From: Promethearchaeota archaeon
GTDB lineage: Archaea > Asgardarchaeota > Lokiarchaeia > Sigyniarchaeales > SOKP01
Direction of reading: 5' to 3'
DNA length: 32,055 bases
Assembly (NCBI GenBank): GCA_019057865.1
Contig: JAHLWP010000040.1
Coordinates: 1-32,055 of the forward strand
Shown piece by piece: positions 3,117 through 31,157 of the stretch. How positions within the stretch are numbered: the stretch's first letter is position 1; every line of letters begins with the position of its first letter. The position numbers and the translations under genes were made by a program. The notes beneath the pieces are model-generated. The model saw only the letters and a list, made by a program, of their open reading frames with translations. It did not search any database and had not been told where the DNA came from.

Positions 3117-3348
3117 GGGCTTCGATAAATTAAATAATTTAAGGTTACTTTTATTCTTGATATTGCATTTTTATATTTTTAGTATCAAGGTTAGGCTTTA
3201 TCTTAAACTCTATATATATTCACAAAAATTAGGCATTATTTTTAAAGAAAAAATAAAAAATGAAGATTTAAATTTATCTTGTTTAATTATATTATTAGTA
3301 CATAGAGAATTTTATATGATTCTCTATAAAAAAAGAGAACAAGACATT

Positions 3349-3840
3349 ATGGTAAAAGTTTTTATTTCTCATAGTACAAAAGATTTTCAACTTGTGGTAG
3401 CTTTAGAGAAATATCTTAATGCTTATGGTATTGAAGTATATATAGCAGAAAGAGATTACCAACCTGGAAAACCTTTATCTAAAAAAATTATGCAAAATAT
3501 TGATATATGTGATTATTTTTTAGTCATCTATACTTTTAATGGTAAAGAATCTAATTTTGTAAATCAAGAGATTGGATATTGGATGAAGAAAAAGAGATAT
3601 GAGGATCTAATTCCTTTTGTAGAAAAAGGAATAAATCCTGAAGCTCTTTTGTGTGGTGTTGAATATATTGAGTTTGATCCTTTAAATCCAAAAATAGGAA
3701 TTGCTAATGTTATTAAATATATAAATAATCAAATAAAAATAAAAAAGAAACAACTAATTTTTGATGTTGGAGTTGGTTTAGGGATAGCAGGACTTACATT
3801 TTTAATATTTTATGGTCTTTCTAAATTAGGTGAAGAATAA
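3349..3840 (+). CDS. TIR domain protein with a C-terminal transmembrane helix
   Basis: KVFISHSTKD box 1, YQPG, CDYFLVIYT and the catalytic Glu in SNFVNQEIGY. C-terminal hydrophobic GVGLGIAGLTFLIFYGL. True start is probably ATG 3349. Confidence 0.85.
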   Translation: MVKVFISHSTKDFQLVVALEKYLNAYGIEVYIAERDYQPGKPLSKKIMQNIDICDYFLVIYTFNGKESNFVNQEIGYWMKKKRYEDLIPFVEKGINPEALLCGVEYIEFDPLNPKIGIANVIKYINNQIKIKKKQLIFDVGVGLGIAGLTFLIFYGLSKLGEE

Positions 3841-5706: not shown

Positions 5707-7608
5707 CTATAACTTATTATCTACATAACTTTTTAAATATAATAAATAATCAAAATTATCACTATACATCGTTTGCTTACTTTCTCTTATTTCTTCTGGG
5801 TTTACGGTTTTGGAGCTAGTGCCAATTCTTTTTTTATAAATATAACTTCCATCATCTCGTAAAACACCAATAACTTTTATTGTCTGAGCAATAACGATAA
5901 TTAAACAAATCTTTTCTATATTATTCTTATCCTTTAGTTTAATTTGTTGAATATTCACAAAATTTTCATTGTACTTAGTCCGTCTTTTTATAAGATTTTT
6001 TAAATCAGTAACTCTGTTTTCTAATGAGTCATAATCCAAACCAATTATATTTCTTGGGATTTTATCTGAAATACCAATAATTAATACACCTCCTTGATTA
6101 TTAGCAAAACTAGCAATTTGTTGACAAAATTTTATTTTACTCTTGTTTAACTCTTGAATTTCTTTAATTTTCCATAAATCTAAGGTTTGTTTAAAATCCC
6201 ATAATTCTGTTTCAATTCTGTTATCTTCCATTGATTTTCGTACAAACTTAATCCAAAAATCTTCGTTGTATATAAGGGATTTTTGAAGTCTATATTTATT
6301 AATATCCATATCAAGATTTCTATAAATCTCCTCATATTTATCTTCAGGGATTTGATTAACTGTTGATTGATAATTCTCTTTTTTTAATAAATAAACTGAA
6401 CATCCATCATTACTTTCAGGTAAAAATTCACGAGAATGAGTTGTGATAAATATTTGAATTTTATCTGAAATATTTATAAATTTATCTCTTAATTTAGTTT
6501 CTAAACCAGGATGAAGATGTAATTCCGGTTCTTCTATGAAGAGAATCTTATTCTCTTTTAATTCCTTAATATATGCAAGAAAATGAATAATATTTAAAAT
6601 TCCTGCACCCATATTTTCTAATGGTAAATCAAAATCTATTTCCCTTTCTTTAAAGATAAGATATGTTCTATCTTGTTGATCAACCATTTGTCCCACTGCT
6701 ATTATGTCGGGAAGATATTCATGTAATTCTTGGTTAAAATCTAATAGCCATTGATCCTGATTTGTAACTTTTTTCATGTGAATGAATTTTGCCAGATTTT
6801 CACCATTAGGTTCTAAAATTGTACTGGTTATATTATTTCTATCAGAATCCTTCTTGAATATCCTTTTGTCAGGAATTAAAAATATAATGTCAAAAAACTT
6901 ATTTTTTAATAATTCTATTAAAAATAATAAAGCTGGATAGTCTGAAAATATATGAAGATTATTAAAAAAACTCTGAAGACTTGAGTTGACACTACCAATA
7001 TTAATATTAGGAAAATCAGTAAAAAAATTTTGAATCGTTTTATCTCTAGCAATAAGCTGAGTAATGTCAGAAACTAAGGTTTGATTTATATTATCTTTAA
7101 CTATTGCTCTTACTAATATTTGTGTTCCTATTTTTTTATGCATTGTTGAAACTTGACTAATATAGATATTTTTAATTATATTACTATATCTAATTTCTAT
7201 ATAAATTTTTGAATAACAACCTTGATCAATTAACCATTGAATTGCTACATTTTTATCTTGCCATTCATCTTTTTTAAGATGTCCTTTTAATCCTTCTGAA
7301 GAACGAAAAGCATTATTTAAGTAGTTACCATGATACAATTTTCGAAGTAATTCCCTTCTGAAAGATTTTGATAATTTAAAAGAAAAAATAATTGAAGCTT
7401 CAACTTCTTTATTATTCTCATAGATGTATCTTGAAGAAAAAGCCCCATTTTGATAATTTTCTTTTAGCATTCTAAAAATTTTAAATAAGTTAGATTTTCC
7501 AGAATTATTTTTTCCAATTAATACATTATAATTATTGAGATTAGAAAATTCTGCTCTCACATAACTTAAGAAATGAAAAAGTTCAATTTTTTCAATCTTT
7601 AATTCCAT
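5707..7608 (-). CDS. ABC/AAA (OLD/AAA_15-like) ATPase fused to a C-terminal Schlafen AlbA_2 domain
   Basis: Walker A GKNNSGKS, signature MGAG, Walker B FIEEPELHLHP and H-loop ITTHS. C-terminal ETELWDFK, IASFANNQGGVLIIGISD and KRIGTSS are AlbA_2 motifs. Likely start is ATG 7608. Confidence 0.85.
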   Translation of the reverse strand: MELKIEKIELFHFLSYVRAEFSNLNNYNVLIGKNNSGKSNLFKIFRMLKENYQNGAFSSRYIYENNKEVEASIIFSFKLSKSFRRELLRKLYHGNYLNNAFRSSEGLKGHLKKDEWQDKNVAIQWLIDQGCYSKIYIEIRYSNIIKNIYISQVSTMHKKIGTQILVRAIVKDNINQTLVSDITQLIARDKTIQNFFTDFPNINIGSVNSSLQSFFNNLHIFSDYPALLFLIELLKNKFFDIIFLIPDKRIFKKDSDRNNITSTILEPNGENLAKFIHMKKVTNQDQWLLDFNQELHEYLPDIIAVGQMVDQQDRTYLIFKEREIDFDLPLENMGAGILNIIHFLAYIKELKENKILFIEEPELHLHPGLETKLRDKFINISDKIQIFITTHSREFLPESNDGCSVYLLKKENYQSTVNQIPEDKYEEIYRNLDMDINKYRLQKSLIYNEDFWIKFVRKSMEDNRIETELWDFKQTLDLWKIKEIQELNKSKIKFCQQIASFANNQGGVLIIGISDKIPRNIIGLDYDSLENRVTDLKNLIKRRTKYNENFVNIQQIKLKDKNNIEKICLIIVIAQTIKVIGVLRDDGSYIYKKRIGTSSKTVNPEEIRESKQTMYSDNFDYLLYLKSYVDNKL

Positions 7609-7896
7609 TTTATTCCCTAAATGCAAATAATTTGTAATATAACTACAATTGATTAATATTATTATATTTTTTATAAATGTCCTCTTTTTTTTTCTCTATT
7701 TTACTTTAAAAGTAGAGATCCTAAGACTTGGAGATATGAAGATTTTTATCCAATTATACCTTCACTTTGGATTTTTTAATTGAAGTTCTAAGAGAAAAAG
7801 CTAAGGAAATTTTGAAAGAACAAAAAAGTAATAAAAATTAACCATCTTATTTTCTTTTTCTTAAAATTTGCTTTCTATTACTTTTTTACACTGGAA

Positions 7897-7995: not shown

Positions 7996-8205
7996 TAAAG
8001 ATTTAAATTTTGTCAGGAGAATAATATTTAAAATATAAAAAATGAAATTTTTCACACATAAAATCTTCATTAACCCATTATTTTGGATGACATATTTTCG
8101 ACAAGATGAATAATCCAAGCCTCATTAGTTATAGGTTCTATTGGAGAGCCCCATTCTTTTGTATTATGATGACTTGCTAAAATATGAATTAATTCATCTA
8201 ATTTT
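7996..8205 (+). repeat. 210-bp direct repeat, copy 1 (3' end of HD gene plus downstream flank)
   Basis: Identical to 30295-30504 except for one base (8025 T vs 30324 C). Confidence 0.95.
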
Positions 8206-8855
8206 TTTGATTTTATTTCTTGACTTATTATTTTAATACCATTAATAATATGTTCTTGTTTTAAAAAAGTCTCAGTGATTTCAAAAAATCCATTCTCAGT
8301 TCTATAGCAATTAATCTTACCAATATCATGTAAAATTGCTCCCGCTATTATTAAATCTTTATCAAGAATAATTTCTTTATTATCTAAATTTAAAATTATT
8401 GCCAATGAAAATTCGATTGTTTGGACTGTATGTTCTAATAATCCTCCCTTATAAGCATGATGTTTTATTTTTGCCCCTGGCGATTCAAAGAAAATAGGAT
8501 ATTTTTCAAGTGTGTCTTTTATTGATATTTTTAATTCGCGTTCTTCGATTTCTTCTATAAAACTATATAATTTTTCTCTCAAAACATCTATGCCTTCACT
8601 CGGTTTTACTTTTATGATTTTATTGCTTAAGCGATTAATTCCATACTGCCCAATATGCCATAAATGTATACTATTGAATTCAACAAAATATTTACCTCTT
8701 AGGAATTCTTTTACTTTTGGATTATCATTTAAAAGGTATTTTTGATATTCAATTACTTTAATAATATTGCCCTCTGGATTAAATTCAAGTCCATAGCGTT
8801 TAAATTTATTATTCAATCTTTTTAAATTTTCTTCTAAATTCTTGTTCAAAATCAT
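8070..8855 (-). CDS. HD-domain phosphohydrolase (YhaM/Cbf1-like), paralog 1
   Basis: SPGA..HHAYKGGLLEHT, AILHDIGK, EHI, ILASHH..EWGSPIEP.T.EA.IIH. Confidence 0.9.
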   Translation of the reverse strand: MILNKNLEENLKRLNNKFKRYGLEFNPEGNIIKVIEYQKYLLNDNPKVKEFLRGKYFVEFNSIHLWHIGQYGINRLSNKIIKVKPSEGIDVLREKLYSFIEEIEERELKISIKDTLEKYPIFFESPGAKIKHHAYKGGLLEHTVQTIEFSLAIILNLDNKEIILDKDLIIAGAILHDIGKINCYRTENGFFEITETFLKQEHIINGIKIISQEIKSKKLDELIHILASHHNTKEWGSPIEPITNEAWIIHLVENMSSKIMG

Positions 8856-9018
8856 TTTTATTACTTATTTTCATTACTCTTATTTAGAAATAATTCTAGT
8901 CTTCTTTTTAATATTTATTATTAATAATTCTAGATAATTTCCAATTTTGACTATTTTTAAAAGATTTTATATAATAGAATTTTCATTAATTTTGTAAATA
9001 ACCAAAAGGAGTGAAATT

Positions 9019-12000
9019 TTGATAAATTTTTCAAAAGAATTAAATTGTATATATCAAAAAATTGCTGAATTGGATTATAATGAAAAATATATCCGAAAAA
9101 ATTTTTTTCATAGTCCAATTAATAGAGATGAAGCAATTAAATATATACAAGAGTTATTCCCAATTCATTTAGCTAAATCTCGTGAAATATTCAAAGAGAT
9201 TCTGACTTTCCCAACAGGTTGTGGAAGAATTAATATTTTAGATATTGGATGTGGTCCATTTACTTTTTCTCAAGCGATTTTAGAAGAACTTATTTGGCGT
9301 TCAAAAAGATATTCTAATGGGATATATAAAATTAATATCAAAGGTGTTGATTTGTCAGAGACACAATTGGAATTTGGAATGCAAATGCTAAATGATTGGA
9401 AAAAAATTAGAAAAGATTCAGGTTGGGATATTAGTACATCTCCATTAATAGATAACGCGAATTTTGATTCTTCGCATTTAGAAATAATAGATTGGATTAA
9501 AAATTCAGAGTTAGATTATTTAATAATCGGATTCAGTGCCTCAATATCATCGGGCGTTAATAGAGCCCTAAAAATAATTAAAAAGATTTTTCCATATATA
9601 AAAAATTCAAATTTCTCAATTATTATTGTAGCACCAAAAGAATATGAAAATAAAAGAGATTTGGATAAAATAAGAGAATTCTTAACAAAATTTACTTCCT
9701 TAAATTTAAACTATAAAAAACTAAAATTCTCTTTACAAAAACCTGATAGTATGGAGGTATATAGTAAAAAACGGATCATAAAAAATGTACCATTTAAAAC
9801 TCTTTTTTGTGAAAATTACATCAAAATTCATTTTTCGTATTTAAAAATATTAAATTTATTGGATTCCTATAAGAAAATGGTAATCCCTTTTAATAAAGCA
9901 AAGAGATGGCTAAATTGTAGGAAAGTAACTGATCATATTGGTCTTAAACTTTATCAATATGATTTTAATTTATCATATAATTTATTAATAAAAAATCTTT
10001 TAACTACGGGTAAATATGATTATACACAATATCCAATCAGAAAAGGACTTGATTTTCAAGCATCGAGAGAAGTATGTTTTGTACCTGTAAATATTTGTGT
10101 TCTAAATATCATCTTAATTGAGGTTTGGGGTAAGCATCTTGATAGGAGATTGCCCTCATATATTTATGGATCGCGATTAATACAAAGATTTTCGTTAAAT
10201 AGAATATTTAAAAGATATGGCTCTTTATATAGAGATTTTATACAAACTGGCTCAACAATTCCTCATAAAAGAAATATACTACTATATCAAACAGATATTA
10301 AAAATTGTTATGGAACAATTAAAAAAAAATCATTAATTAAAGATTTGAAAGATGATTTTGAAGATTTAATGGCAAGTGATTTAGGAGAACAATATTCATT
10401 TTATAGTTCTAATCCAAGCGAATCAATAGAATTAATTTTGAAATCATTAAATAATATATTTGGTGATTCTGAAGGTATTCCTATAGGATTACCTATATCT
10501 CCCATTATAGTGAATAATTTCTTAACTAAACTTGATGAAAATATTAGAGAATTACCATGTGTAAAAGATTATGGTAGATATTTAGATGATATTAGAATTA
10601 TTGTCAAAGAAGATAATACAGAACAGTTTGGAGAAAATTTTAATAAGGTAATAGACAAGAAAATAAAAGACTTAGAACTTAATCAAAAGGAAAATAAAGC
10701 TGGTAAGATTAAAACAATTGAATATTTTGGAAGTTCTATTATTCTCCAGAAAAATTCTGAACTTCAGATTTTAGAGGATATCTTCTTAGAAATAATGTAT
10801 CCGATTTATTTAGTAGGTAAGTCTTTAAGGGAGATTGATGCATTTAATACAAATTATAATAATTTGTCAGATGAACTAAGAAATATTATTATATTATTAT
10901 CATCTTCATTAAAAGAATTAGGAATCTTTATCGACCACGAGTTCTTAGAAAGGATTTTTATAACATCTTTTTTCCATAAAAAAAAGTCTAAAAGAAAAGA
11001 ATTCTCACCATTAAAAATTCCAAAAGAAATATGTAATATTTCTGAATCGAATATTTTAGCAGAAAAAATAAAAAAAATAAATATAGCATGGTATAAAAAA
11101 TATATTCAAATTCAGAATTTTATGTATAATGAATTACACGAAGAATTGTTAATTTGGGATGACATAATAAAAGATTTGGAAGATCTTTATAATAATTATG
11201 ATGATAATGAGAAAACAGAAGAATATCAATCAATGAAGAAAGAACTTTTAAAAAAATTAAGTAAAAATAAATTTATTTTATCCTTTAGAAAAATTAGATT
11301 TTTAGCATATAGATTATCTCTTATTAAAGCAATACAATTTAAGGAAAAAGATAATCCGATACTCCAAAAACTTATTAAATTTGATTTAATAGGTTTTCCA
11401 ATAAAATTAACAGGCTTATTATGTTATAGGTATGGTCATATTGATCTCCTAAAGAATAAATTAATAGAAAGTTGTAAAAGAGGACATCATCCACTTACTA
11501 GTGACGAAGAAATTTGTCCTAGAATTTATGGAAATGAAATAGGTTCTCTAATTCATCTTCTTGGTCTGTATTTTGAAGAAAATAATGATAATTTTGATTC
11601 CGATGAATGGAAAGGAGTTTTACAATTCTTTTTAGAAAATGGAAGATTTGATGAAAAATTATCAACAACGGAATTTGTATTAAGATTAAATATTAGTAGT
11701 TTATGGACTTATAATTTTTGGTTGCAATTATTAGAGCGCGAAGGCAATGTTTTCATTATAAAGAATTTAGTATTATGTGTAGCCTCACATGACCAATTAC
11801 AAAATAATATCCCTATGGAAGTAAAGAATAAATTGATTAAAATTTATAAGAAAGATGAGGTTCTTATTAATTTAGTTTTACATTTATGGAGTAAAATACA
11901 GAAAGATGGTATAAAAATTCTATTTCAAAAAGATGATGTTTTAACTCTAATTGATTTTTTCGATAAAGAAATAGATTATGAATTAGAATTGACGTCTGAC

Positions 12001-12099
12001 TATGAATGGGAAGAAGGTTTTGAGATAAACGAATTTTATGAAAGTGATGATATTCTAGATGACTTACCCGATGATTATGGAGAAGATGAATATTATTAA
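9019..12099 (+). CDS. SAM-methyltransferase / reverse transcriptase fusion (UG/Abi-DRT-like RT) with a helical C-terminal region and an acidic Tyr-rich tail
   Basis: Methyltransferase motifs ILDIGCGP and GVDLS. RT motifs IYGSR, QTDIKNCYGTI, GIPIGLPISPIIVNNFL, YGRYLDDIRI and LELNQKEN. SD GGAGTGA precedes the TTG start. Confidence 0.9.
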   Translation: MINFSKELNCIYQKIAELDYNEKYIRKNFFHSPINRDEAIKYIQELFPIHLAKSREIFKEILTFPTGCGRINILDIGCGPFTFSQAILEELIWRSKRYSNGIYKINIKGVDLSETQLEFGMQMLNDWKKIRKDSGWDISTSPLIDNANFDSSHLEIIDWIKNSELDYLIIGFSASISSGVNRALKIIKKIFPYIKNSNFSIIIVAPKEYENKRDLDKIREFLTKFTSLNLNYKKLKFSLQKPDSMEVYSKKRIIKNVPFKTLFCENYIKIHFSYLKILNLLDSYKKMVIPFNKAKRWLNCRKVTDHIGLKLYQYDFNLSYNLLIKNLLTTGKYDYTQYPIRKGLDFQASREVCFVPVNICVLNIILIEVWGKHLDRRLPSYIYGSRLIQRFSLNRIFKRYGSLYRDFIQTGSTIPHKRNILLYQTDIKNCYGTIKKKSLIKDLKDDFEDLMASDLGEQYSFYSSNPSESIELILKSLNNIFGDSEGIPIGLPISPIIVNNFLTKLDENIRELPCVKDYGRYLDDIRIIVKEDNTEQFGENFNKVIDKKIKDLELNQKENKAGKIKTIEYFGSSIILQKNSELQILEDIFLEIMYPIYLVGKSLREIDAFNTNYNNLSDELRNIIILLSSSLKELGIFIDHEFLERIFITSFFHKKKSKRKEFSPLKIPKEICNISESNILAEKIKKINIAWYKKYIQIQNFMYNELHEELLIWDDIIKDLEDLYNNYDDNEKTEEYQSMKKELLKKLSKNKFILSFRKIRFLAYRLSLIKAIQFKEKDNPILQKLIKFDLIGFPIKLTGLLCYRYGHIDLLKNKLIESCKRGHHPLTSDEEICPRIYGNEIGSLIHLLGLYFEENNDNFDSDEWKGVLQFFLENGRFDEKLSTTEFVLRLNISSLWTYNFWLQLLEREGNVFIIKNLVLCVASHDQLQNNIPMEVKNKLIKIYKKDEVLINLVLHLWSKIQKDGIKILFQKDDVLTLIDFFDKEIDYELELTSDYEWEEGFEINEFYESDDILDDLPDDYGEDEYY

Positions 12100-12231
12100 A
12101 ATTACAATGTGGGGAATATAAAAGGGAGTTTATACAAGAAATTAATAATTTCCTTAAAGAACACCAAAACTATTATTTTATTTTTATCATTTATATAATA
12201 AAGTCGAGAATTTCTGAGAGTGGTGGTAATC

Positions 12232-12351
12232 TTGAAATTTAAACTCATTGAAATAGAAATTGAAAACTTTCTTAGTTATAAAAAAGCTAAATTTTCAGAA
12301 TTAAAAGATTATAATGTTTTGATTGGAAAAAATATTTTAAAAGTTCTATAA
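12232..12351 (+). pseudogene. 5' fragment of an ABC/AAA ATPase gene, truncated within Walker A
   Basis: LKFKLIEIEIENFLSYKKAKFSELKDYNVLIGKN-ILKVL* aligns with MELKIEKIELFHFLSYVRAEFSNLNNYNVLIGKNNSGKS of 5707-7608. GGTGGT SD-like site upstream. Confidence 0.8.
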
Positions 12352-12395
12352 AATATAATATAAATAATTTAAAGTGATCCAATATGGGATAGAAT

Positions 12396-12572
12396 ATGAG
12401 TAACGAGAAGAAAATCTTCACTTTAGAGGATGTAAAATTAGCTTCAATGGGTCCAGATACTATTGTTTATATCCCACGAGCTTTAATTAAGCATAAAATT
12501 CTTGATCCTGAAAAGAGATATAACGTGCATTTTGAAGAGATTCTTGAGGAAGAACATAAAAAGGAAGATTAA
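12396..12572 (+). CDS. Small AbrB/SpoVT-like DNA-binding protein (58 aa, not in the ORF track)
   Basis: MSNEKKIFTLEDVKLASMGPDTIVYIPRALIKHKILDPEKRYNVHFEE..., a swapped-hairpin-like 'K...MG...VYIP..L' pattern. Confidence 0.6.
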   Translation: MSNEKKIFTLEDVKLASMGPDTIVYIPRALIKHKILDPEKRYNVHFEEILEEEHKKED

Positions 12573-25788: not shown

Positions 25789-27855
25789 ATGCTAATTTCA
25801 AAAGTTTCTATAAAAAATTATCGAAATTTTCAAAATTTCAAGATTGAATTAGGTAAATTTAATTTAATATTTGGAGAAAACAATATTGGAAAAACTAATT
25901 TTATAAATGCTCTAGAAGGCATTTTAAATCCAACTCGTTCGTTTAAATCTTTTAAAATTGAAGAAAGTGATTTTATTGATATACATAAACCAATTATAAT
26001 AAAGATTAAATTTCAAAGTATTGATGAGGATAATGAATTAATCAACATCTTAGAAGATGGCATTATTGACCCTGAAATGAATTATAGTGCTAAATTAAAG
26101 TTCATTGCAAAATGGAATCCAGAAGAGAAAGACATTGATAAAGACTGCTTTTTTATTAAAAAGGAAATGAGTGATGATAATGGAAAATTTAATTTTAAAT
26201 ACGCTTATCGAAGATTATTCCATTTTTATTCTATTCCAAGTATGAGATGGGCAAGAAAAGAAATTAGGATGGATAAAAAAAGTGATTTAATGAATGTAAT
26301 TAATTATTATTTGCCAAATTTTATCATTTCTTTTTCACTTCTTAAGAAGGGGCTCCAAGAAATTCTTTTAAGTTTAAAGGAAGACTTGATTTCAGTTGAA
26401 TTCCCAAACTCAGTAATTACAGATTTAGACCATCTTATAAAACTTTTGAATCAAGAGTTTAAGATTGATGAAGAAAACAAACTTAAGAGTCTCAAGACAG
26501 ATAGAGAAAAGGTTTTTGCAAAAATAAAAGAAATTTTTAGTAATAATAGCTTTGAAAAAGGTCAAATCGATCTTATCGATGATTTATTTAATAAATTTAA
26601 TGAAAAGCTAATAATTTTTGAAAAAAGATTTGAGACTCAAAGAATTCTAAGTGATTTAAAAAAAAGGTTTTCTGATTTAAATAGCTTTAAAAATTTACAA
26701 AATGATTTTTCAGTAATTATAGAAAAAATTATGCCGAATATTAAATTAGATTTATCTTTTGTTTCAATTCAAGATAATGAGTTATTAAAAAAAGCTTTAA
26801 TCGAAATTGATGATTTTCCGATATTAGCTCATGGAACCGGATTTCAAAGTTATTTCGTTATTGCCTTAAAATTATTGAAAATAAATTCAATGCTTAATAG
26901 ACAAGATATTAAAAGTTCCTTTATAGCAATTGAAGAACCCGAAGCTCATTTATACCCACATTTGCAAAGACAATTAATTGAAAATCTTAGAGTAATTCAA
27001 AATGAATTTGAAAGTAGGTATGATATAAAATTTCAATTTATTATTACAAGTCATTCGTCAAATATCTTATCAAGATTTGAATTTCCAGAATTGATTTTAT
27101 TGAGGAAAAATGAAAATTTCTATACCGAATCGATACATTTTCCGGAAATAAGAATATTAATTGATGATTTAGAATTAGCTGAGGAAGAATATAAAAGTAA
27201 AGTGGGTAAATTAAACAAGAGCCTCATAAGGGTTTTTAAAGGAATATTTACATTCTACCCTGAAGCTTTTTTTTCACGATGCATAATTCTTGGAGAAGGT
27301 TCAACTGAAGAGGGAGCCATTCCAGAATATGCAAGAACTATGAATAAAAACTTCGACCTTTTTAGTATTTCTTACATTTCTCTTGAGGGTACAGGAAACT
27401 TAAAATATTATAAAACTATTTTAAAAAGATTAAATATTCCCTTTATTTCTATAGTTGATAAAGATGATAATGATGTGAAGGATTTTTTAAGTGACGATGA
27501 ATTTATCACCAAGGAAAAAGCATTTGAAGCTGAGATTATTTCAAAGGTACCATGTTATAAACTTCTTGATGTTTTAATAAGTCTATGTTCCGATAAAACA
27601 ATAGAAAATTATTATAATATCATTAAAAATGAATTATCTTTAACAAATGAAGTTAATAATTTTGGAGAATGCATAAATTTCTTTAAAGAGCATCTAGAAT
27701 ACGAGGATGTTTTAAAAAAAATCTTAAAACCATGGATAATTAGACAAAAAGGTCTTACGATGGGAAAATTATTAGGAGAAATTAGTGAATTAGAGGAAAT
27801 TCCAGAGATATATAAAGAAGTTATCAATAAAGCAGTTGAAAAAACTAAGAGTTAA
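25789..27855 (+). CDS. gajA: OLD-family ATP-dependent nuclease (Gabija GajA-like)
   Basis: GENNIGKT, HGTG signature, IAIEEPEAHLYPHLQR and ITSHS. TOPRIM motifs FFSRCIILGEGSTE and VDKD. Confidence 0.85.
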   Translation: MLISKVSIKNYRNFQNFKIELGKFNLIFGENNIGKTNFINALEGILNPTRSFKSFKIEESDFIDIHKPIIIKIKFQSIDEDNELINILEDGIIDPEMNYSAKLKFIAKWNPEEKDIDKDCFFIKKEMSDDNGKFNFKYAYRRLFHFYSIPSMRWARKEIRMDKKSDLMNVINYYLPNFIISFSLLKKGLQEILLSLKEDLISVEFPNSVITDLDHLIKLLNQEFKIDEENKLKSLKTDREKVFAKIKEIFSNNSFEKGQIDLIDDLFNKFNEKLIIFEKRFETQRILSDLKKRFSDLNSFKNLQNDFSVIIEKIMPNIKLDLSFVSIQDNELLKKALIEIDDFPILAHGTGFQSYFVIALKLLKINSMLNRQDIKSSFIAIEEPEAHLYPHLQRQLIENLRVIQNEFESRYDIKFQFIITSHSSNILSRFEFPELILLRKNENFYTESIHFPEIRILIDDLELAEEEYKSKVGKLNKSLIRVFKGIFTFYPEAFFSRCIILGEGSTEEGAIPEYARTMNKNFDLFSISYISLEGTGNLKYYKTILKRLNIPFISIVDKDDNDVKDFLSDDEFITKEKAFEAEIISKVPCYKLLDVLISLCSDKTIENYYNIIKNELSLTNEVNNFGECINFFKEHLEYEDVLKKILKPWIIRQKGLTMGKLLGEISELEEIPEIYKEVINKAVEKTKS

Positions 27856-27861
27856 AAAATT

Positions 27862-29628
27862 ATGACAAGAGATTCATCACAAGAAGAAATTATTTATTCT
27901 GATATAAATAAATCATATTTGGTTATAGCTCCACCTGGTTATGGCAAAACTTTTACAATGGGGCGAAGAATCAAATATATTATTGAAAATAAAAAGATTT
28001 CTGGTAAATTAATTGGATTAACATTTACTAATGCTGCAGCAAATGAAATGTTTAACAGATTAGATATTGATGATAATATTTTAGAAAAAAAAGTGTATAT
28101 TACAACATTTCATTCTTTTTGTTATAATATTTTAAGAAATTATGGATCAAAAATAGAGTTAAATCAGAGATTTAATATTATTAGTCCAATTGAGAGAGAA
28201 GATTTATTAAAAAAAAATTTAATTGATTTGGGTATTAATCAAGATTCAATTGATAATGTTTATAAAAATGATTTCTCAGAATGGATTCTTGAAAAACGTT
28301 TAAAACTAAATGAAGGATACAAAAACCAAGATTTTGAAGAAATCTTCAATAAAGCTTATGATGATTACGAGAATAACTTGAAAAACGAAAATAAGCTGGA
28401 TTTCAACTATTTAATCATAAAAGTTATAGAACTATGGAAAAAATATCCTGTCATACTTAATTTCTATCGTAAAAAATATGAGTATGTGTTAGTAGATGAA
28501 TTCCAAGATTCTAATATGATACAATATCAAATTTTTAAATATTTAATAAATGGTGTTGAAAAACCTGGAACTAATAGTAAAAAATTAAATTTTATGTGTT
28601 TTGGTGATGATTTTCAGTCAATTTTCATATTCCAAGGAGCTCTCTCCAATGAATTAAGGATAATCTTAGATGATTTTGACTATGAAATTAAAGAATTAAG
28701 AGTAAATCACAGAACTACTTCTTCATTAATCAAATCTATCAATTTATATTTAAGAAAAGGAGAATTATCGACGCTTGGTATTAATAATAAGATTGATTGT
28801 TATTTATTTAATAATGTGGAAGAAGAAGCAATATTTATTTTAGAAAAAATCAAAGAGTTTCAAAAAGGTGGGATTGCACTTGATGATATATGCATAATTT
28901 CAAGAATGTATTTTCGTCTTAATAATATTAAAGAATTATTTGAAAATAACGATCTAGAATTTATATATTTAAAGGATTTTAGAAATGATACAATTGAAAG
29001 AAAATACTTGAACTTTTTCAATAAATTTGATGAAATTATATTAGAACAAAGGAAATCTGGTAAAATATCAAGTATTTTTATGCAAATCTGTGAGAATAGT
29101 GGTTATGACTTTGATAATGATATTGTGCTTCAGACAATTTATGAATATATTAAAGACTATGAATTAAGGAAAGATATTAAAAAATATCACTTATGGGAAA
29201 AAATTCAGTTAATCAAGAATGATATGTTGTTAGAATTGAATTGGGGGGAAAAGATTAGAGAAAAAACTAAAGGTAAAATTTATCTATCATCGGTACATCA
29301 AGTAAAAGGATTAGAGTTTTCAAAAGTCATTTTTGTAGGACTAGAAAATTTTGAATTCCCACACCCTAGAATTTGTATTAAAAAGTGTATAAATAATGAA
29401 GTTATTAATATTCAAGAGGAAAAAAATATTCTTTATGTTGGAATTAGTAGAACAAAATCTAACCTTATTTTAACATCTTTAAAACAAATCCTTAATAGAG
29501 AGGGTAAAATAAAGAAGAGAACTCTAAGTTGTCTTTTACAAGATATAGAACATTTTATAAATATTATAGATATCAATAATCCCCTGTCATCGGTAACTTT
29601 TGATTCAAAAAAGTGCTGGAATTGTTAA
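27862..29628 (+). CDS. gajB: UvrD-like SF1 helicase (Gabija GajB-like)
   Basis: APPGYGKT, LTFTNAAA, TFHSF, VDEFQD, GDDFQSIF, NHR, SVHQVKGLEF, LYVGISR. Begins 7 bp after the OLD nuclease stop. Confidence 0.85.
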   Translation: MTRDSSQEEIIYSDINKSYLVIAPPGYGKTFTMGRRIKYIIENKKISGKLIGLTFTNAAANEMFNRLDIDDNILEKKVYITTFHSFCYNILRNYGSKIELNQRFNIISPIEREDLLKKNLIDLGINQDSIDNVYKNDFSEWILEKRLKLNEGYKNQDFEEIFNKAYDDYENNLKNENKLDFNYLIIKVIELWKKYPVILNFYRKKYEYVLVDEFQDSNMIQYQIFKYLINGVEKPGTNSKKLNFMCFGDDFQSIFIFQGALSNELRIILDDFDYEIKELRVNHRTTSSLIKSINLYLRKGELSTLGINNKIDCYLFNNVEEEAIFILEKIKEFQKGGIALDDICIISRMYFRLNNIKELFENNDLEFIYLKDFRNDTIERKYLNFFNKFDEIILEQRKSGKISSIFMQICENSGYDFDNDIVLQTIYEYIKDYELRKDIKKYHLWEKIQLIKNDMLLELNWGEKIREKTKGKIYLSSVHQVKGLEFSKVIFVGLENFEFPHPRICIKKCINNEVINIQEEKNILYVGISRTKSNLILTSLKQILNREGKIKKRTLSCLLQDIEHFINIIDINNPLSSVTFDSKKCWNC

Positions 29629-30307: not shown

Positions 30308-30504
30308 TTTGTCAGGAGAATAACATTTAAAATATAAAAAATGAAATTTTTCACACATAAAATCTTCATTAACCCATTATTTTGGATGACATATTTTCGA
30401 CAAGATGAATAATCCAAGCCTCATTAGTTATAGGTTCTATTGGAGAGCCCCATTCTTTTGTATTATGATGACTTGCTAAAATATGAATTAATTCATCTAA
30501 TTTT
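30295..30504 (+). repeat. 210-bp direct repeat, copy 2
   Basis: 209/210 identical to 7996-8205. Confidence 0.95.
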
Positions 30505-31157
30505 ACCGACTTGATTTCTGAAGAAATAATCTTTATACCATGGATAATATGTTCTTGTTCATGAAAAATATCTGTTATTTCAATAATTCCATTAGAAAAT
30601 TCATAACAATTTATTTTTCCAATATCGTGAAGAATAGCCCCAGCAATTAATAAATCTTGATCGATGATTAAATTTTCAATAACATCATTTACAGCTAAAG
30701 CTAATTTAACTGTTTGAATTGTATGCTCTAATAATCCTCCTTCATAATTATGGTGATTATATTTAGCTCCTGGAGTTTCATAAAACATTTTGTTTTTTTC
30801 GAAAAACTCTTTTATAGAATTTTTTAATTCGCTATCTTTAATCATTTCAATATATTCCCATAATTCACTTCTTAAAGTATCAATACTTTTCGAAGGCTTT
30901 ATTTTTACTATTTTTCTAATTAGTCTTTTTATTCCTGCTTTCCCTATGAACCAAAATTTTTGATCCCAATTAAAAGCAATTAAGTATTGATCTTTTAATG
31001 CTTGTTTTAGTTTTGGATTATTTGTAATTACATAATCATCATTAATTTTGATTATATCTCCATTATATTCAAATTGAATCTCTAATGGTTCATATTTTTT
31101 ATTTAATAATTTTATATTTTCTTCCAGAATTTTTGACATTTTTACTACTCGATTCAA
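30369..31157 (-). CDS. HD-domain phosphohydrolase (YhaM/Cbf1-like), paralog 2
   Basis: TPGAKYNHHNYEGGLLEHT, AILHDIGK, ILASHH..WGSP. Start may be ATG 31139. Confidence 0.9.
   Translation of the reverse strand: MNRVVKMSKILEENIKLLNKKYEPLEIQFEYNGDIIKINDDYVITNNPKLKQALKDQYLIAFNWDQKFWFIGKAGIKRLIRKIVKIKPSKSIDTLRSELWEYIEMIKDSELKNSIKEFFEKNKMFYETPGAKYNHHNYEGGLLEHTIQTVKLALAVNDVIENLIIDQDLLIAGAILHDIGKINCYEFSNGIIEITDIFHEQEHIIHGIKIISSEIKSVKLDELIHILASHHNTKEWGSPIEPITNEAWIIHLVENMSSKIMG

What the first reader, a model, noticed from the sequence alone, without database searches (positions are those of the whole stretch)
9019..12099. Methyltransferase-reverse transcriptase fusion: candidate new defence-associated RT system in an Asgard archaeon
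Seen: one 1026-aa ORF with a class I SAM methyltransferase (LDIGCGP, GVDLS; about aa 1-270), a full RT core (TDIKNCYGTI, GIPIGLPISP, YLDD; about aa 290-570) and ~400 aa of probably helical sequence. Known: RT plus alpha-helical repeats is the layout of UG/Abi RTs (AbiK, Abi-P2, several DRTs), which act in antiviral defence. From memory, methylase-fused UG RTs have been noted bioinformatically in bacteria, but I know of no functional characterisation or Asgard example. It lacks group II intron domains, the retron VTG motif and any DGR TR/VR. Inference: a single-gene antiviral system in which the RT product controls the methyltransferase, or the methyltransferase modifies the template, the product or a host RNA. 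Its position among Pycsar, Gabija and TIR genes fits this.
Basis: partly seen in the sequence, partly recalled or inferred. Interest (0 to 1): 0.9.

Follow-up and report, generated by a model that had tools for sequence, protein, structure and literature searches.

The report
Archaeal methyltransferase–reverse transcriptase defence fusion
This is a real, intact gene in an Asgard archaeon that fuses an RNA-methyltransferase-like domain to a reverse transcriptase and a helical-repeat domain; it is a rare, very divergent archaeal branch of a fusion type already catalogued (but never studied) in bacteria, and it probably acts in antiviral defence.

Summary
Window 9019-12099 (+) is one intact 1026-aa ORF. 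It has an Rsm22/METTL17-like class I SAM-methyltransferase fold (aa 1-280), a complete RT (D426, YLDD 521-524), an ARM/HEAT-like solenoid (aa ~579-972) and a disordered acidic Tyr-rich tail.

The fusion is not an assembly artefact. Eight relative clusters keep it, and an independent contig from another study spans it at ~97% identity with no indel in the ORF.

It is a UG/Abi RT. Profile-profile alignment to bacterial UG25/UG35-like methylase-RTs covers the whole length (99.9%, E 3.5e-32). The architecture is therefore already known (Mestre 2022), but this clade scores far below member level on UG25 and not at all on UG35. It also lacks their partner genes (DUF1848, UvrD).

Its recurrent companion is instead a DnaQ-like 3'-5' exonuclease, fused in one subclade and adjacent in two loci. 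In the window a YhaM-like HD protein sits next to the gene.

Defence-island context is seen in two independent loci, and the gene was not found in 40 related genomes.

Best reading: an antiviral, probably protein-primed DNA-synthesising RT whose product is restrained by an exonuclease. That mechanism is inferred, not shown.

Verdict: new variant of a known kind; interest moderate.

The parts
9019..12099 (+). Whole 1026-aa MTase-RT-solenoid ORF (TTG start, TAA stop)
   Evidence: The only RVT_1 match in the 4.26-Mb genome. An independent contig spans it with no indel in the ORF.
9019..9858 (+). N-terminal Rsm22/METTL17-like class I SAM-methyltransferase fold (aa 1-280). Motif I is L74-D-I-G-C-G-P80, the motif II acid is D111, and the motif III-like stretch is D145-N-A-N-F149.
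   Evidence: Model pLDDT 82. Best structural matches are chains in mitoribosomal small-subunit assembly intermediates, Z 16.2-18.9, against Z<=14 for generic MTases. Atlas Rsm22 clusters match at TM 0.66-0.73. D75, G79, P80 and D111 are invariant in the family.
9886..10752 (+). Reverse transcriptase domain (aa ~290-578) with catalytic D426 and Y521-L-D523-D524
   Evidence: Pfam RVT_1 5.9e-11. PADLOC UG/DRT models 1e-11 to 5e-22. D426, Y521, D523 and D524 are invariant.
10753..11934 (+). All-helical ARM/HEAT-like solenoid (aa ~579-972), the alphaRep-type domain of class 1 UG/Abi RTs
   Evidence: Model pLDDT 80, all helices. The best matches are all importin/armadillo/HEAT/designed-repeat proteins at Z 9-11.5. 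AbiK appears only at Foldseek E~1. hhalign aligns this region with the C-terminal part of UG25/35-like proteins.
11935..12096 (+). Disordered acidic tail (aa ~973-1026) with six Tyr, ending in YY; candidate protein primer
   Evidence: pLDDT <50. The E-W-E-E-G-F core is conserved, and Tyr is in the last three residues in 6 of 8 relatives; it is absent from the tail of P0004. The analogy is to the DRT9 C-terminal priming Tyr (PMC12483538). Its function is inferred.
8856..9018 (.). Divergent intergenic region between the HD gene and the RT gene. It holds an AT-rich TATA-like TTTATATAAT at ~8966-8975 and GGAG at 9008-9011.
   Evidence: Read directly. No significant RNA structure (z -0.28). No Rfam family.
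8070..8855 (-). YhaM-like HD-domain protein (261 aa), divergent neighbour; possible but unproven accessory nuclease
   Evidence: Pfam HD 8e-14. Best NCBIfam match is the 3'-5' exoribonuclease YhaM at 9e-21, below the equivalog cut-off. It is 33% identical to the HD gene directly downstream of the RT homologue in L004. It also has RT-less paralogues at 30369-31157 and on C41, and homologues in 7 of 40 relatives.

Best explanation
The gene encodes a divergent archaeal member of the methylase-fused class 1 UG/Abi reverse transcriptases (the UG25/UG35 lineage). It most likely works as an accessory antiviral defence enzyme.

Shown here:
- The three-domain architecture.
- Intact SAM-binding and polymerase motifs.
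- Full-length homology to bacterial methylase-RTs.
- Sporadic occurrence.
- Defence-island context in two independent loci.
- A recurrent link to a DnaQ-like 3'-5' exonuclease.

Inferred from characterised relatives (AbiK, DRT4, DRT7, DRT9, DRT10):
- The RT synthesises DNA primed on the protein itself. The conserved acidic Tyr-rich C-terminal tail is the candidate primer.
- The solenoid supports oligomerisation or nucleic-acid handling.
- The DNA product, once it accumulates during infection, stops the cell or the virus.
- The exonuclease (fused or adjacent in relatives; supplied in trans, or perhaps replaced by the neighbouring YhaM-like HD protein, in this genome) would continually trim the product in uninfected cells. 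This is what host ExoI does for DRT9 and UG17.
- The Rsm22-like domain most likely binds a structured RNA (a template/scaffold RNA, or a host or viral RNA that serves as signal). It may or may not methylate that RNA.
For: Architecture and motifs.

UG/Abi affiliation:
- The best PADLOC hits are UG5, UG34, Drt3a, UG17 and UG25 (4.7e-22 to 1.9e-14). Retron and group II models score weaker.
- All 20 labelled non-family HMMER neighbours are UG5, UG17, UG3 or UG25/35-like.

Full-length kinship to UG25/35-like proteins:
- hhalign gives 99.9%, E 3.5e-32 over 834 columns, from the N-terminal helices through motif I and the RT into the solenoid.
- The N-terminal domain of family member P0010, on its own, hits the methylase part of RT_UG35 at 1.4e-8.
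- An Atlas cluster of 1006-aa bacterial RTs shares the N-terminal fold at TM 0.72.

Accessory, mobile character: not found in 40 related genomes. Only ~8 full-length relative clusters among 1.84 billion representatives.

Defence context:
- Window: Pycsar, TIR, ATPase-Schlafen and Gabija-like genes.
- L029/L030: Nmad3, RNase_Zc3h12a, radical SAM, HEPN, SAVED+SMODS, TIR and Cas6.

Exonuclease link:
- RNase_T domain fused at the N-terminus in P0005, P0006, P0071 and P0074.
- A separate adjacent gene in L002 and L004, 32-46% identical to the fused domains.

Precedents:
- DRT9 is primed by C-terminal tyrosines, and ExoI is conditionally essential with DRT9 and UG17 (PMC12483538).
- DRT4, DRT7 and DRT10 show template-independent or protein-primed synthesis (abstracts listed).
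Against: - Nothing functional is known for any methylase-RT. Mestre et al. rated the defence prediction for UG25 and UG35 as inconclusive.
- Only two loci give a clear defence-island context. L004 lies beside a HerA/NurA/Mre11/Rad50 operon, L014 lies among metabolic genes, and the other contigs are too short to judge.
- The window itself has no DEDD exonuclease. The genome's three copies are on other contigs.
- In RT-less relatives the same exonuclease and a 302-aa HD protein flank a HerA/Rad50-like operon, so their adjacency to the RT in L004 could be inherited synteny.
- The window's HD protein has paralogues with no RT nearby.
- The loop after strand 4 of the methyltransferase (SASxSSG) is not shared with UG25/35-like proteins, so catalysis is uncertain. 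Rsm22/METTL17 itself is only a 'putative' methyltransferase with an architectural role (PMC9892005).
- The tail Tyr is missing in P0004.
- No template ncRNA was found.
Confidence: 0.6

Rival explanations
1. Two-gene (or larger) system in this genome. The divergently transcribed YhaM-like HD protein (8070-8855) is the RT's dedicated partner. It would act either as the nuclease that trims the product (replacing the DEDD exonuclease of relatives) or as the effector.
For: - The HD gene is immediately adjacent, 163 bp away and divergent.
- An HD protein 33% identical follows the RT homologue directly in L004.
- The best family match is a 3'-5' exonuclease, YhaM, the same polarity as the DEDD exonuclease linked to relatives.
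- The HD-RT pair lies between the ATPase-Schlafen gene and an inverted 5' fragment of a paralogous ATPase, which may mark a cassette.
Against: - HD paralogues at 60% and 50% identity sit elsewhere (window 30369-31157; contig C41) without an RT. Homologues occur in 7 of 40 relatives that showed no match to the RT.
- Five of the seven relative loci show no HD gene nearby.
- The L004 HD is the orthologue of one that accompanies a HerA/Rad50-like operon in RT-less genomes.
Confidence: 0.25
2. Not immunity. It would be a housekeeping or regulatory RNA-modification or RNA-binding enzyme: an Rsm22-like ribosome- or RNA-associated factor in which the RT-like domain makes a regulatory cDNA or simply binds RNA.
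For: - The N-terminal fold is closest to ribosome-assembly factors Rsm22/METTL17.
- The defence score for UG25/UG35 was inconclusive in the reference survey.
- L004 and L014 are not obvious defence islands.
Against: - Not found in all 40 related genomes searched, many of them >90% complete.
- Extremely rare overall.
- Embedded in dense defence islands in two unrelated loci.
- Polymerase catalytic residues are strictly conserved.
- All sequence neighbours are UG/DRT RTs.
Confidence: 0.1
3. A mobile retroelement RT (group II intron, retron, DGR or an unknown retrotransposon) rather than a domesticated defence enzyme.
For: - Weak RT-core matches to retron St85 (4.3e-11) and group II (2.2e-9) models.
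- The flank differs between strains beyond ~12167.
Against: - Those matches cover only the shared RT core, far below their cut-offs, and are weaker than the UG/DRT matches.
- No maturase or endonuclease domain.
- Single copy in the genome.
- No TR/VR-like or terminal repeats.
- No Rfam intron or retron RNA.
- Full-length homology to UG25/35-like proteins.
Confidence: 0.04

Closest known systems
UG25 and UG35 methylase-fused class 1 UG/Abi RTs (Mestre et al. 2022, PMC9226505)
   Same: Same order of domains: N-terminal methyltransferase, RT, C-terminal helical repeats. Homologous over the whole length by profile-profile comparison with bacterial UG25/35-like proteins. RT_UG25 aligns to aa 68-785. 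As with UG25/UG35, no experiment exists.
   Different: - Member-level scores are missing: 51 bits on RT_UG25, against 268-275 bits for the partial bacterial protein P0037. P0001 gives no RT_UG35 hit.
- The hosts are archaeal rather than bacterial.
- No adjacent DUF1848 (the UG25 partner) and no dedicated UvrD helicase (the UG35 partner).
- The recurrent companion is instead a DnaQ-like exonuclease.
- The post-strand-4 loop of the methyltransferase differs.
DRT9 (UG28) and UG17/DRT10 systems
   Same: They are class 1 UG/Abi RTs. Both DRT9 and this protein have a C-terminal tail with conserved tyrosines. There is a functional tie to a DEDD-type 3'-5' exonuclease: host ExoI neutralises the DRT9 and UG17 products. 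The RT tree places the family weakly on the UG17 + UG25/35 side.
   Different: Those systems have a conserved structured ncRNA template and no methyltransferase, and their exonuclease is a host gene rather than fused. No ncRNA was found here.
AbiK / Abi-P2 / DRT4 / DRT7 (template-independent, protein-primed UG/Abi RTs)
   Same: RT plus helical-repeat layout, and they act as stand-alone proteins. The absence of any detectable template RNA fits a template-independent mode.
   Different: They have no methyltransferase or exonuclease module. The priming Tyr of AbiK is N-terminal (Y44, as named in the PDB title). Structural similarity of the solenoid to AbiK is weak (Foldseek E~1).
Rsm22 / METTL17 (mitoribosomal small-subunit assembly factor, Pfam PF09243)
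   Same: It is the best structural match of the N-terminal domain (Z 16-19 over 234-256 residues; TM 0.66-0.73). It is a class I SAM-MTase fold that grips structured RNA.
   Different: There is no sequence-level match to PF09243. The N-terminal domain has no invariant cysteines that could form the Fe4S4 site. Assigning the matched PDB chains to METTL17, Rsm22 and SAF1 rests on the entries' paper and on chain lengths, not on a chain table.

Membership tests
UG/Abi reverse transcriptases | RT domain closer to UG/Abi profiles than to group II intron, retron, DGR or CRISPR-RT profiles | tested here: met
   PADLOC: UG5 4.7e-22, UG34 5.7e-17, Drt3a 1.1e-16, UG17 1.6e-15, UG25 1.9e-14, against retron types 2e-11 or weaker. 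NCBIfam group II gives 2.2e-9. All 20 labelled nearest neighbours are UG groups.
Class 1 UG/Abi RTs | C-terminal alpha-helical repeat (alphaRep/HEAT-like) domain fused to the RT | tested here: met
   The model of aa 575-1026 is an all-helix solenoid. All top matches are HEAT/ARM/importin/designed repeats at Z 9-11.5, which is within the range helical proteins reach by arrangement alone. It is colinear with the C-terminus of UG25/35-like proteins, two of which carry Pfam HEAT_2.
UG25 | N-terminal methyltransferase domain fused to the RT | tested here: met
   Class I MTase fold. The RT_UG25 alignment starts at aa 68. hhalign covers motif I.
UG25 | Member-level match to the group profile (RT_UG25) | tested here: not met
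   50.9 bits, E 1.9e-14 for P0001, and at best 1.7e-17 in the family. The partial bacterial relative P0037 gives 268 bits.
UG25 | Associated DUF1848 gene (cluster 579 of Mestre et al.) | tested here: not met
   The only DUF1848 matches in the genome are on contig C52, not on the window's contig C11. None is listed in the relatives' loci.
UG35 | Member-level match to RT_UG35 and an associated UvrD-like helicase | tested here: not met
   P0001 gives no RT_UG35 hit at E<=1. Only the N-terminal domain of P0010 hits it, at 1.4e-8. The only UvrD helicase in the window (27862-29628) is 15.7 kb away and directly follows a GajA-like ATPase-TOPRIM gene.
Rsm22/METTL17 (PF09243) | Sequence match to the family profile | tested here: not met
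   No PF09243 hit at E<=1 for P0001 or at E<=0.1 for 8 family members. The similarity is structural only.
Rsm22/METTL17 (PF09243) | Fe4S4 cluster ligated by conserved cysteines | tested here: not met
   No invariant Cys among the N-terminal invariant columns of the family. The feature itself is taken from PMC9892005.
Group II intron RT / retron RT / DGR RT | Maturase (X) or endonuclease domain and intron RNA; msr/msd ncRNA; TR/VR repeat pair | tested here: not met
   Only RVT_1 in Pfam. No Rfam family in the window. No long near-repeats around the gene. Single copy in the genome.
Protein-primed UG/Abi RTs (AbiK, DRT9 type) | Conserved priming tyrosine positioned to reach the active site | tested here: inconclusive
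   The tail has 6 Tyr and ends in YY. 6 of 8 relatives have Tyr in the last three residues, P0003 has Tyr only further in, and P0004 has none. The tail is modelled as disordered. No full-length model could be made.
ncRNA-templated DRTs (DRT2, DRT9, DRT10) | Conserved structured ncRNA next to the RT gene | tested here: inconclusive
   No Rfam hit. Fold z-scores are +0.84 and -0.28. Only short, low-complexity or ~60%-identity matches were found between the flanks of 8 loci. AT-rich, highly diverged flanks could hide an RNA.

The most novel reading that the evidence does not exclude
An Asgard-archaeal 'DNA-writing' immune enzyme with a self-contained safety catch. The Rsm22-like domain would read or methylate a structured RNA (its own template, or a host or viral RNA) to license synthesis. 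The RT would extend DNA from its own C-terminal tyrosines. A built-in or recruited 3'-5' exonuclease would act like an antitoxin that viruses disable. This would be a fused RT/exonuclease version of the DRT9-ExoI relationship, joined to RNA methylation, and the first mechanistic handle on the unstudied UG25/UG35 lineage and on RT-based immunity in the archaeal relatives of eukaryotes.
Probability: 0.2. Interest if true: 0.8.

Novelty: new variant of a known kind. Interest (0 to 1): 0.52.

Why it matters
Methylase-fused UG/Abi RTs (UG25/UG35) were catalogued in 2022 but have no known activity, partner logic or proven defence role.

This archaeal clade adds three testable clues:
- an Rsm22-like, hence probably RNA-gripping, methyltransferase domain;
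- a conserved Tyr-rich acidic tail like the DRT9 primer;
- a gene-fusion link to a DnaQ-type 3'-5' exonuclease, which mirrors the host ExoI dependence of DRT9 and UG17.

It also extends RT-based candidate immunity into Asgard archaea. UG/Abi RTs in general were reported as rare in archaea, and I found no report of a methylase-fused one from Asgard archaea.

If confirmed, it would show how a toxic DNA product and its neutralising nuclease can be packaged in one polypeptide.

Tried and rejected
- **ncRNA search.** Rfam on the whole window gave nothing. RNA folding of 12100-12400 and 8856-9018 was no better than shuffles. blastn between the flanks of 8 loci gave only A/T-rich 13-18-mers or ~60%-identity stretches with no consistent position. 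No ncRNA is claimed, and none is excluded.
- **Sequence search of the N-terminal profile against PDB.** Nothing significant. Whole protein against PDB: only a marginal group II RT hit, E 0.033.
- **Genome-contig scan with the motif I pattern.** It found only two Krumholzibacteriia loci with a ~395-aa ORF matching aa 71-141. These are stand-alone methyltransferases, not RT fusions.
- **Complex prediction** of the N-terminal domain with the genome's own DEDD exonuclease: no verdict (score 0.00). This counts neither for nor against binding.
- **Sequencing runs.** No RNA holder was listed, so nothing can be said on expression.
- **Supplementary tables of Mestre et al.** are not held. The locus of bacterial P0067 is not on record, so the A4 reference set could not be split into UG25 and UG35 by neighbours.
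- **RT-only tree.** The family is a well-supported clan (95/95), but its join with UG25/35-like and UG17 is weak (62/39). There is no outgroup, and branches are long. Rows used: 8 family, 6 UG25/35-like, 13 UG5, 1 UG17, 1 UG3. All other hits were left out.
- **Flanking terminal or DGR-type repeats.** None beyond chance. No tRNA in the window.
- **PDB sequence searches** of the 1514-aa exonuclease-bearing ORF and the 1202-aa neighbour of another exonuclease copy: uninformative.
Full report
**1.

Window 9019-12099 (+) is a single 1026-aa ORF. It starts at a TTG preceded by GGAG at 9008-9011. The N-terminus aligns with the Met starts of its homologues.

- LDIGCGP, aa 74-80
- GVDLS, aa 109-113
- TDI..., aa 425-427
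- GIPIGLPISP, aa 486-495
- YLDD, aa 521-524

Pfam sees only RVT_1 (aa 415-572, E 5.9e-11). The methyltransferase is too divergent for Pfam.

An AlphaFold model of aa 1-300, built on an 11-sequence family alignment, is confident (pLDDT 82, pTM 0.84). Every Foldseek hit to it is a class I SAM-methyltransferase.

The C-terminal 452 aa model as an all-helical solenoid (pLDDT 80). The last ~54 residues are disordered.

**2. It is not an assembly artefact.**

Eight full-length relatives, from different metagenomes, keep the same three regions in the same order.

A 6-kb contig from a different study covers 8800-12167 at about 97% identity. It shows 87 substitutions and one 1-nt gap, and that gap lies upstream of the ORF. 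A reading frame of 3 kb kept open across that many substitutions argues for selection.

The window is a whole contig (C11). Its composition fits the rest of the genome: GC 0.254 against 0.291, and tetranucleotide r 0.996, mid-rank among contigs.

**3. Which RT it is.**

PADLOC places the RT core among UG/DRT models. These score better than the retron models:

| Model | E-value |
|---|---|
| UG5-nitrilase | 4.7e-22 |
| UG34 | 5.7e-17 |
| Drt3a | 1.1e-16 |
| UG17 | 1.6e-15 |
| UG25 | 1.9e-14 |

NCBIfam gives Drt3a 9.4e-17, retron St85 4.3e-11 and group II 2.2e-9, all far below their cut-offs.

The RT_UG25 alignment alone runs from aa 68 to 785, so it includes the methyltransferase region.

An exhaustive HMMER search of 1.84 billion representatives returned only 60 hits. 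Beyond the family, all 20 that I labelled are UG groups: 17 UG5 (full or partial), 1 UG17, 1 UG3/Drt3a, and one UG25/UG35-like protein, P0037. True members score 1e-100 to 1e-276 on their own model, so this protein is a member of none of those groups.

I collected bacterial relatives of P0037 (including a 926-aa Neomoorella protein) and compared the two alignments. The hhalign result was probability 99.9%, E 3.5e-32, 834 aligned columns. The alignment runs from the first helices (FP.H.aKa) through motif I (ILDIGCGPFTFS against VVDIGAGIGTFS) and the whole RT into the C-terminal helices.

Further support comes from three results:
- The N-terminal domain of the most divergent family member hits the methylase part of RT_UG35 on its own (1.4e-8).
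- The ESM Atlas holds a cluster of 1006-aa bacterial RTs whose N-terminus has the same fold (TM 0.72).
- With a family RT-region HMM, UG25/35-like proteins are the best outside scorers, and they alone align across the N-terminal extension of the RT.

An RT-only tree recovers the family as a clan (95/95). Its join with UG25/35-like and UG17 is only weakly supported (62/39).

Conclusion: this is a deep, divergent branch of the methylase-RT lineage described as UG25/UG35, class 1 UG/Abi, by Mestre et al. 2022 (PMC9226505).

**4. The domains.**

*N-terminal domain.* An all-against-all structural search puts three chains from mitoribosomal small-subunit assembly intermediates on top: T. brucei 6sg9_F1 (Z 18.9), human 8csp_7 (Z 17.0) and yeast 8d8j_0 (Z 16.2). 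Each aligns over 234-256 residues. Generic methyltransferases reach Z 14 at most.

The paper behind those entries names METTL17, Rsm22 and the trypanosome homologue SAF1 as the conserved methyltransferase-fold factor. It describes that factor as a 'putative' methyltransferase that grips rRNA helix 31 (PMC9892005). My assignment of the chains rests on this paper and on chain length.

Atlas clusters annotated Rsm22 (PF09243) also match, at TM 0.73 and 0.66.

The SAM-pocket residues are conserved in the family: D75, G79 and P80 in motif I, D111 after strand 2, and D-N-x-N-F149 after strand 3. The loop after strand 4 (SASxSSG) is family-specific and is not shared with UG25/35-like proteins. SAM binding is therefore likely, but transfer and substrate are open.

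*RT.* D426 and Y521-x-D523-D524 are invariant.

*C-terminal domain.* All structural matches are importin, armadillo, HEAT or designed repeat proteins at Z 9-11.5. AbiK appears only at Foldseek E~1. This fits the alphaRep domain of class 1 but is not diagnostic on its own.

*Tail.* The core E-W-E-E-G-F is conserved, and the last three residues include Tyr in 6 of 8 relatives. P0004 has no Tyr in its tail. I confirmed that DRT9 uses C-terminal tyrosines Y496/Y498 (PMC12483538). The analogy here remains an inference.

**5. Distribution and host.**

The family is tiny, with about eight full-length clusters at 50% identity. All come from low-GC (25-36%) sediment or subsurface metagenome contigs. 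They include LCGC14 marine-sediment records.

Two contigs carry archaeal markers: HerA-NurA-Mre11-Rad50 in L004, and a histone fold in L014.

The gene gave no match in 40 genomes of the same genus and order. It is the only RVT_1 in its own genome.

The genome has an actin at 4.5e-133 and 49 Ras-family GTPases. One of those GTPases lies 1.3 kb downstream of the RT. This supports 'Asgard archaeon'.

**6. Neighbourhood.**

The window is a defence island:
- PycTM + PycC (1479-2760)
- a TIR protein (3157-3840)
- an AAA_15/AAA_21 ATPase fused to Schlafen AlbA_2 (5707-7626, -)
- a GajA-like ATPase-TOPRIM followed after 7 nt by a UvrD helicase (25789-29628)

This context is replicated independently. 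The homologue P0074 sits on a 188-kb contig among Nmad3, RNase_Zc3h12a, radical SAM, HEPN_Swt1, SAVED + SMODS, a TIR fragment and Cas6.

*Exonuclease link.* The most informative link is a DnaQ/RNase_T-type DEDDh exonuclease.
- It is fused to the N-terminus in P0005, P0006, P0071 and P0074 (Pfam 3.5e-12; DIETTG, NKxFD and HRAxxD are intact).
- It is a separate adjacent gene in L002 and L004, 32-46% identical to the fused domains.

The window has none. The genome has three copies on other contigs.

Caveat: the same exonuclease, with a 302-aa HD protein, flanks a HerA/Rad50-like four-gene operon in two RT-less congeners. The L004 adjacency may therefore be inherited synteny. The fusions are not open to that objection.

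*HD protein.* The window's divergent neighbour (8070-8855) is a YhaM-like HD protein (NCBIfam 9e-21). It is 33% identical to the HD gene that follows the RT in L004. It also has RT-less paralogues in the window and elsewhere. I therefore treat it as a possible partner, not an established one.

**7. How it probably works.**

By analogy with the characterised UG/Abi enzymes, I propose an antiviral RT that synthesises DNA from a protein primer, with the Tyr-rich tail as the candidate primer. The analogues are:
- AbiK/Abi-P2, DRT4 and DRT7: template-independent, protein-primed.
- DRT9 and DRT10: ncRNA-templated, protein-primed (abstracts).

The product would become harmful when it accumulates.

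The DRT9 study showed that host ExoI, a 3'-5' exonuclease, continually removes the product. ExoI is conditionally essential with DRT9 and UG17, and a phage protein that shields 3' ends triggers the system. A 3'-5' exonuclease fused to, or encoded next to, the archaeal RT fits that logic as a built-in restraint. In the window this role would fall to a trans-encoded copy or to the YhaM-like HD protein.

The Rsm22-like domain most plausibly holds a structured RNA, either a template/scaffold or a signal. Whether it methylates anything cannot be told from sequence.

Steps shown here: architecture, conserved catalytic and SAM-binding residues, homology, context, and the exonuclease link. Steps inferred: priming, the nature of the product, the role of the exonuclease, and the role of the methyltransferase.

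**8. Novelty.**

What is new:
- an archaeal (Asgard-associated) clade that no current UG/DRT model captures at member level;
- a different accessory logic, with an exonuclease in place of DUF1848 or UvrD;
- a structural assignment of the methylase to the Rsm22/METTL17 fold.

No paper in the held library mentions UG25 or UG35 beyond the two classification papers. A search for Asgard with RT and defence systems turned up no such system among the titles and abstracts listed.

I rate it a new variant of a known kind, of moderate interest. Its value lies mainly in giving testable hypotheses for an unstudied RT lineage.

Noticed in passing
window 12232-12351 (+): A 39-codon ORF is 59% identical (E 1e-10) to aa 7-40 of the ATPase-Schlafen protein at 5707-7626 (-). 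It stops just before the Walker A site, so it is a truncated 5' remnant of a paralogous ATPase gene, with some upstream similarity too. The HD-RT pair thus lies between inverted ATPase 5' ends. The independent strain contig (X5) stops matching at ~12167, just before the remnant, which suggests a recombination junction.
   Followed up: partly
window 30369-31157 (-); G000:C41:127878-128651: There are two more copies of the YhaM-like HD protein (60% and 50% identical to 8070-8855), neither next to an RT. Homologues occur in 7 of 40 relatives.
   Followed up: partly
L024 1503-9638; L025 596-8728; L004 2892-14946: A 302-aa YhaM-like HD protein and a DnaQ-like exonuclease bracket a four-gene HerA/NurA/Mre11/Rad50-like operon in two RT-less genomes of the same genus. 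In L004 the same HD-exonuclease pair sits beside such an operon with the RT gene in between. This may be a conserved nuclease module of its own.
   Followed up: partly
L023 343-4887 (G000:C49): A 1514-aa ORF in the same genome carries the same DEDD exonuclease domain at its C-terminus (aa ~1323-1505). It has no NCBIfam hit, and its only PDB hits are weak DnaQ matches. The rest of the protein is unexplained.
   Followed up: partly
window 5707-7626 (-): An ABC-type ATPase (AAA_15/AAA_21, AriA/HEC-01A-like in PADLOC) is fused to a Schlafen AlbA_2 domain where OLD/Gabija proteins carry TOPRIM.
   Followed up: partly
window 12396-12572 (+): A 58-aa ORF overlaps the end of the convergent PAS-domain gene by 4 nt. 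It has no NCBIfam hit. It may be a small regulator or chance.
   Followed up: partly
ESM Atlas clusters (rows 6 and 8): Bacteroidota proteins of ~690-700 aa combine the same Rsm22-like methyltransferase fold (TM 0.68-0.70) with a NERD nuclease-related domain. This is another nuclease-linked use of the fold.
   Followed up: no
L029 8054-9173 and 13693-14517: Next to the exonuclease-MTase-RT homologue P0074 lie an RNase_Zc3h12a protein, a radical-SAM protein upstream after a 655-nt gap, and a HEPN_Swt1-like protein 198 nt downstream on the same strand. The long upstream gap was not examined for an RNA.
   Followed up: no
cluster of P0009: On a 165-kb contig the homologue of P0074 (1164 aa) is recorded as two products of 687 and 475 aa. 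This is probably a frameshifted or split copy.
   Followed up: no
G000:C52:17130-18560: A DUF1848 gene (the UG25 partner family) exists in this genome, far from the RT. It is flanked by two short DUF1848 fragments, one with an in-frame TGA.
   Followed up: no
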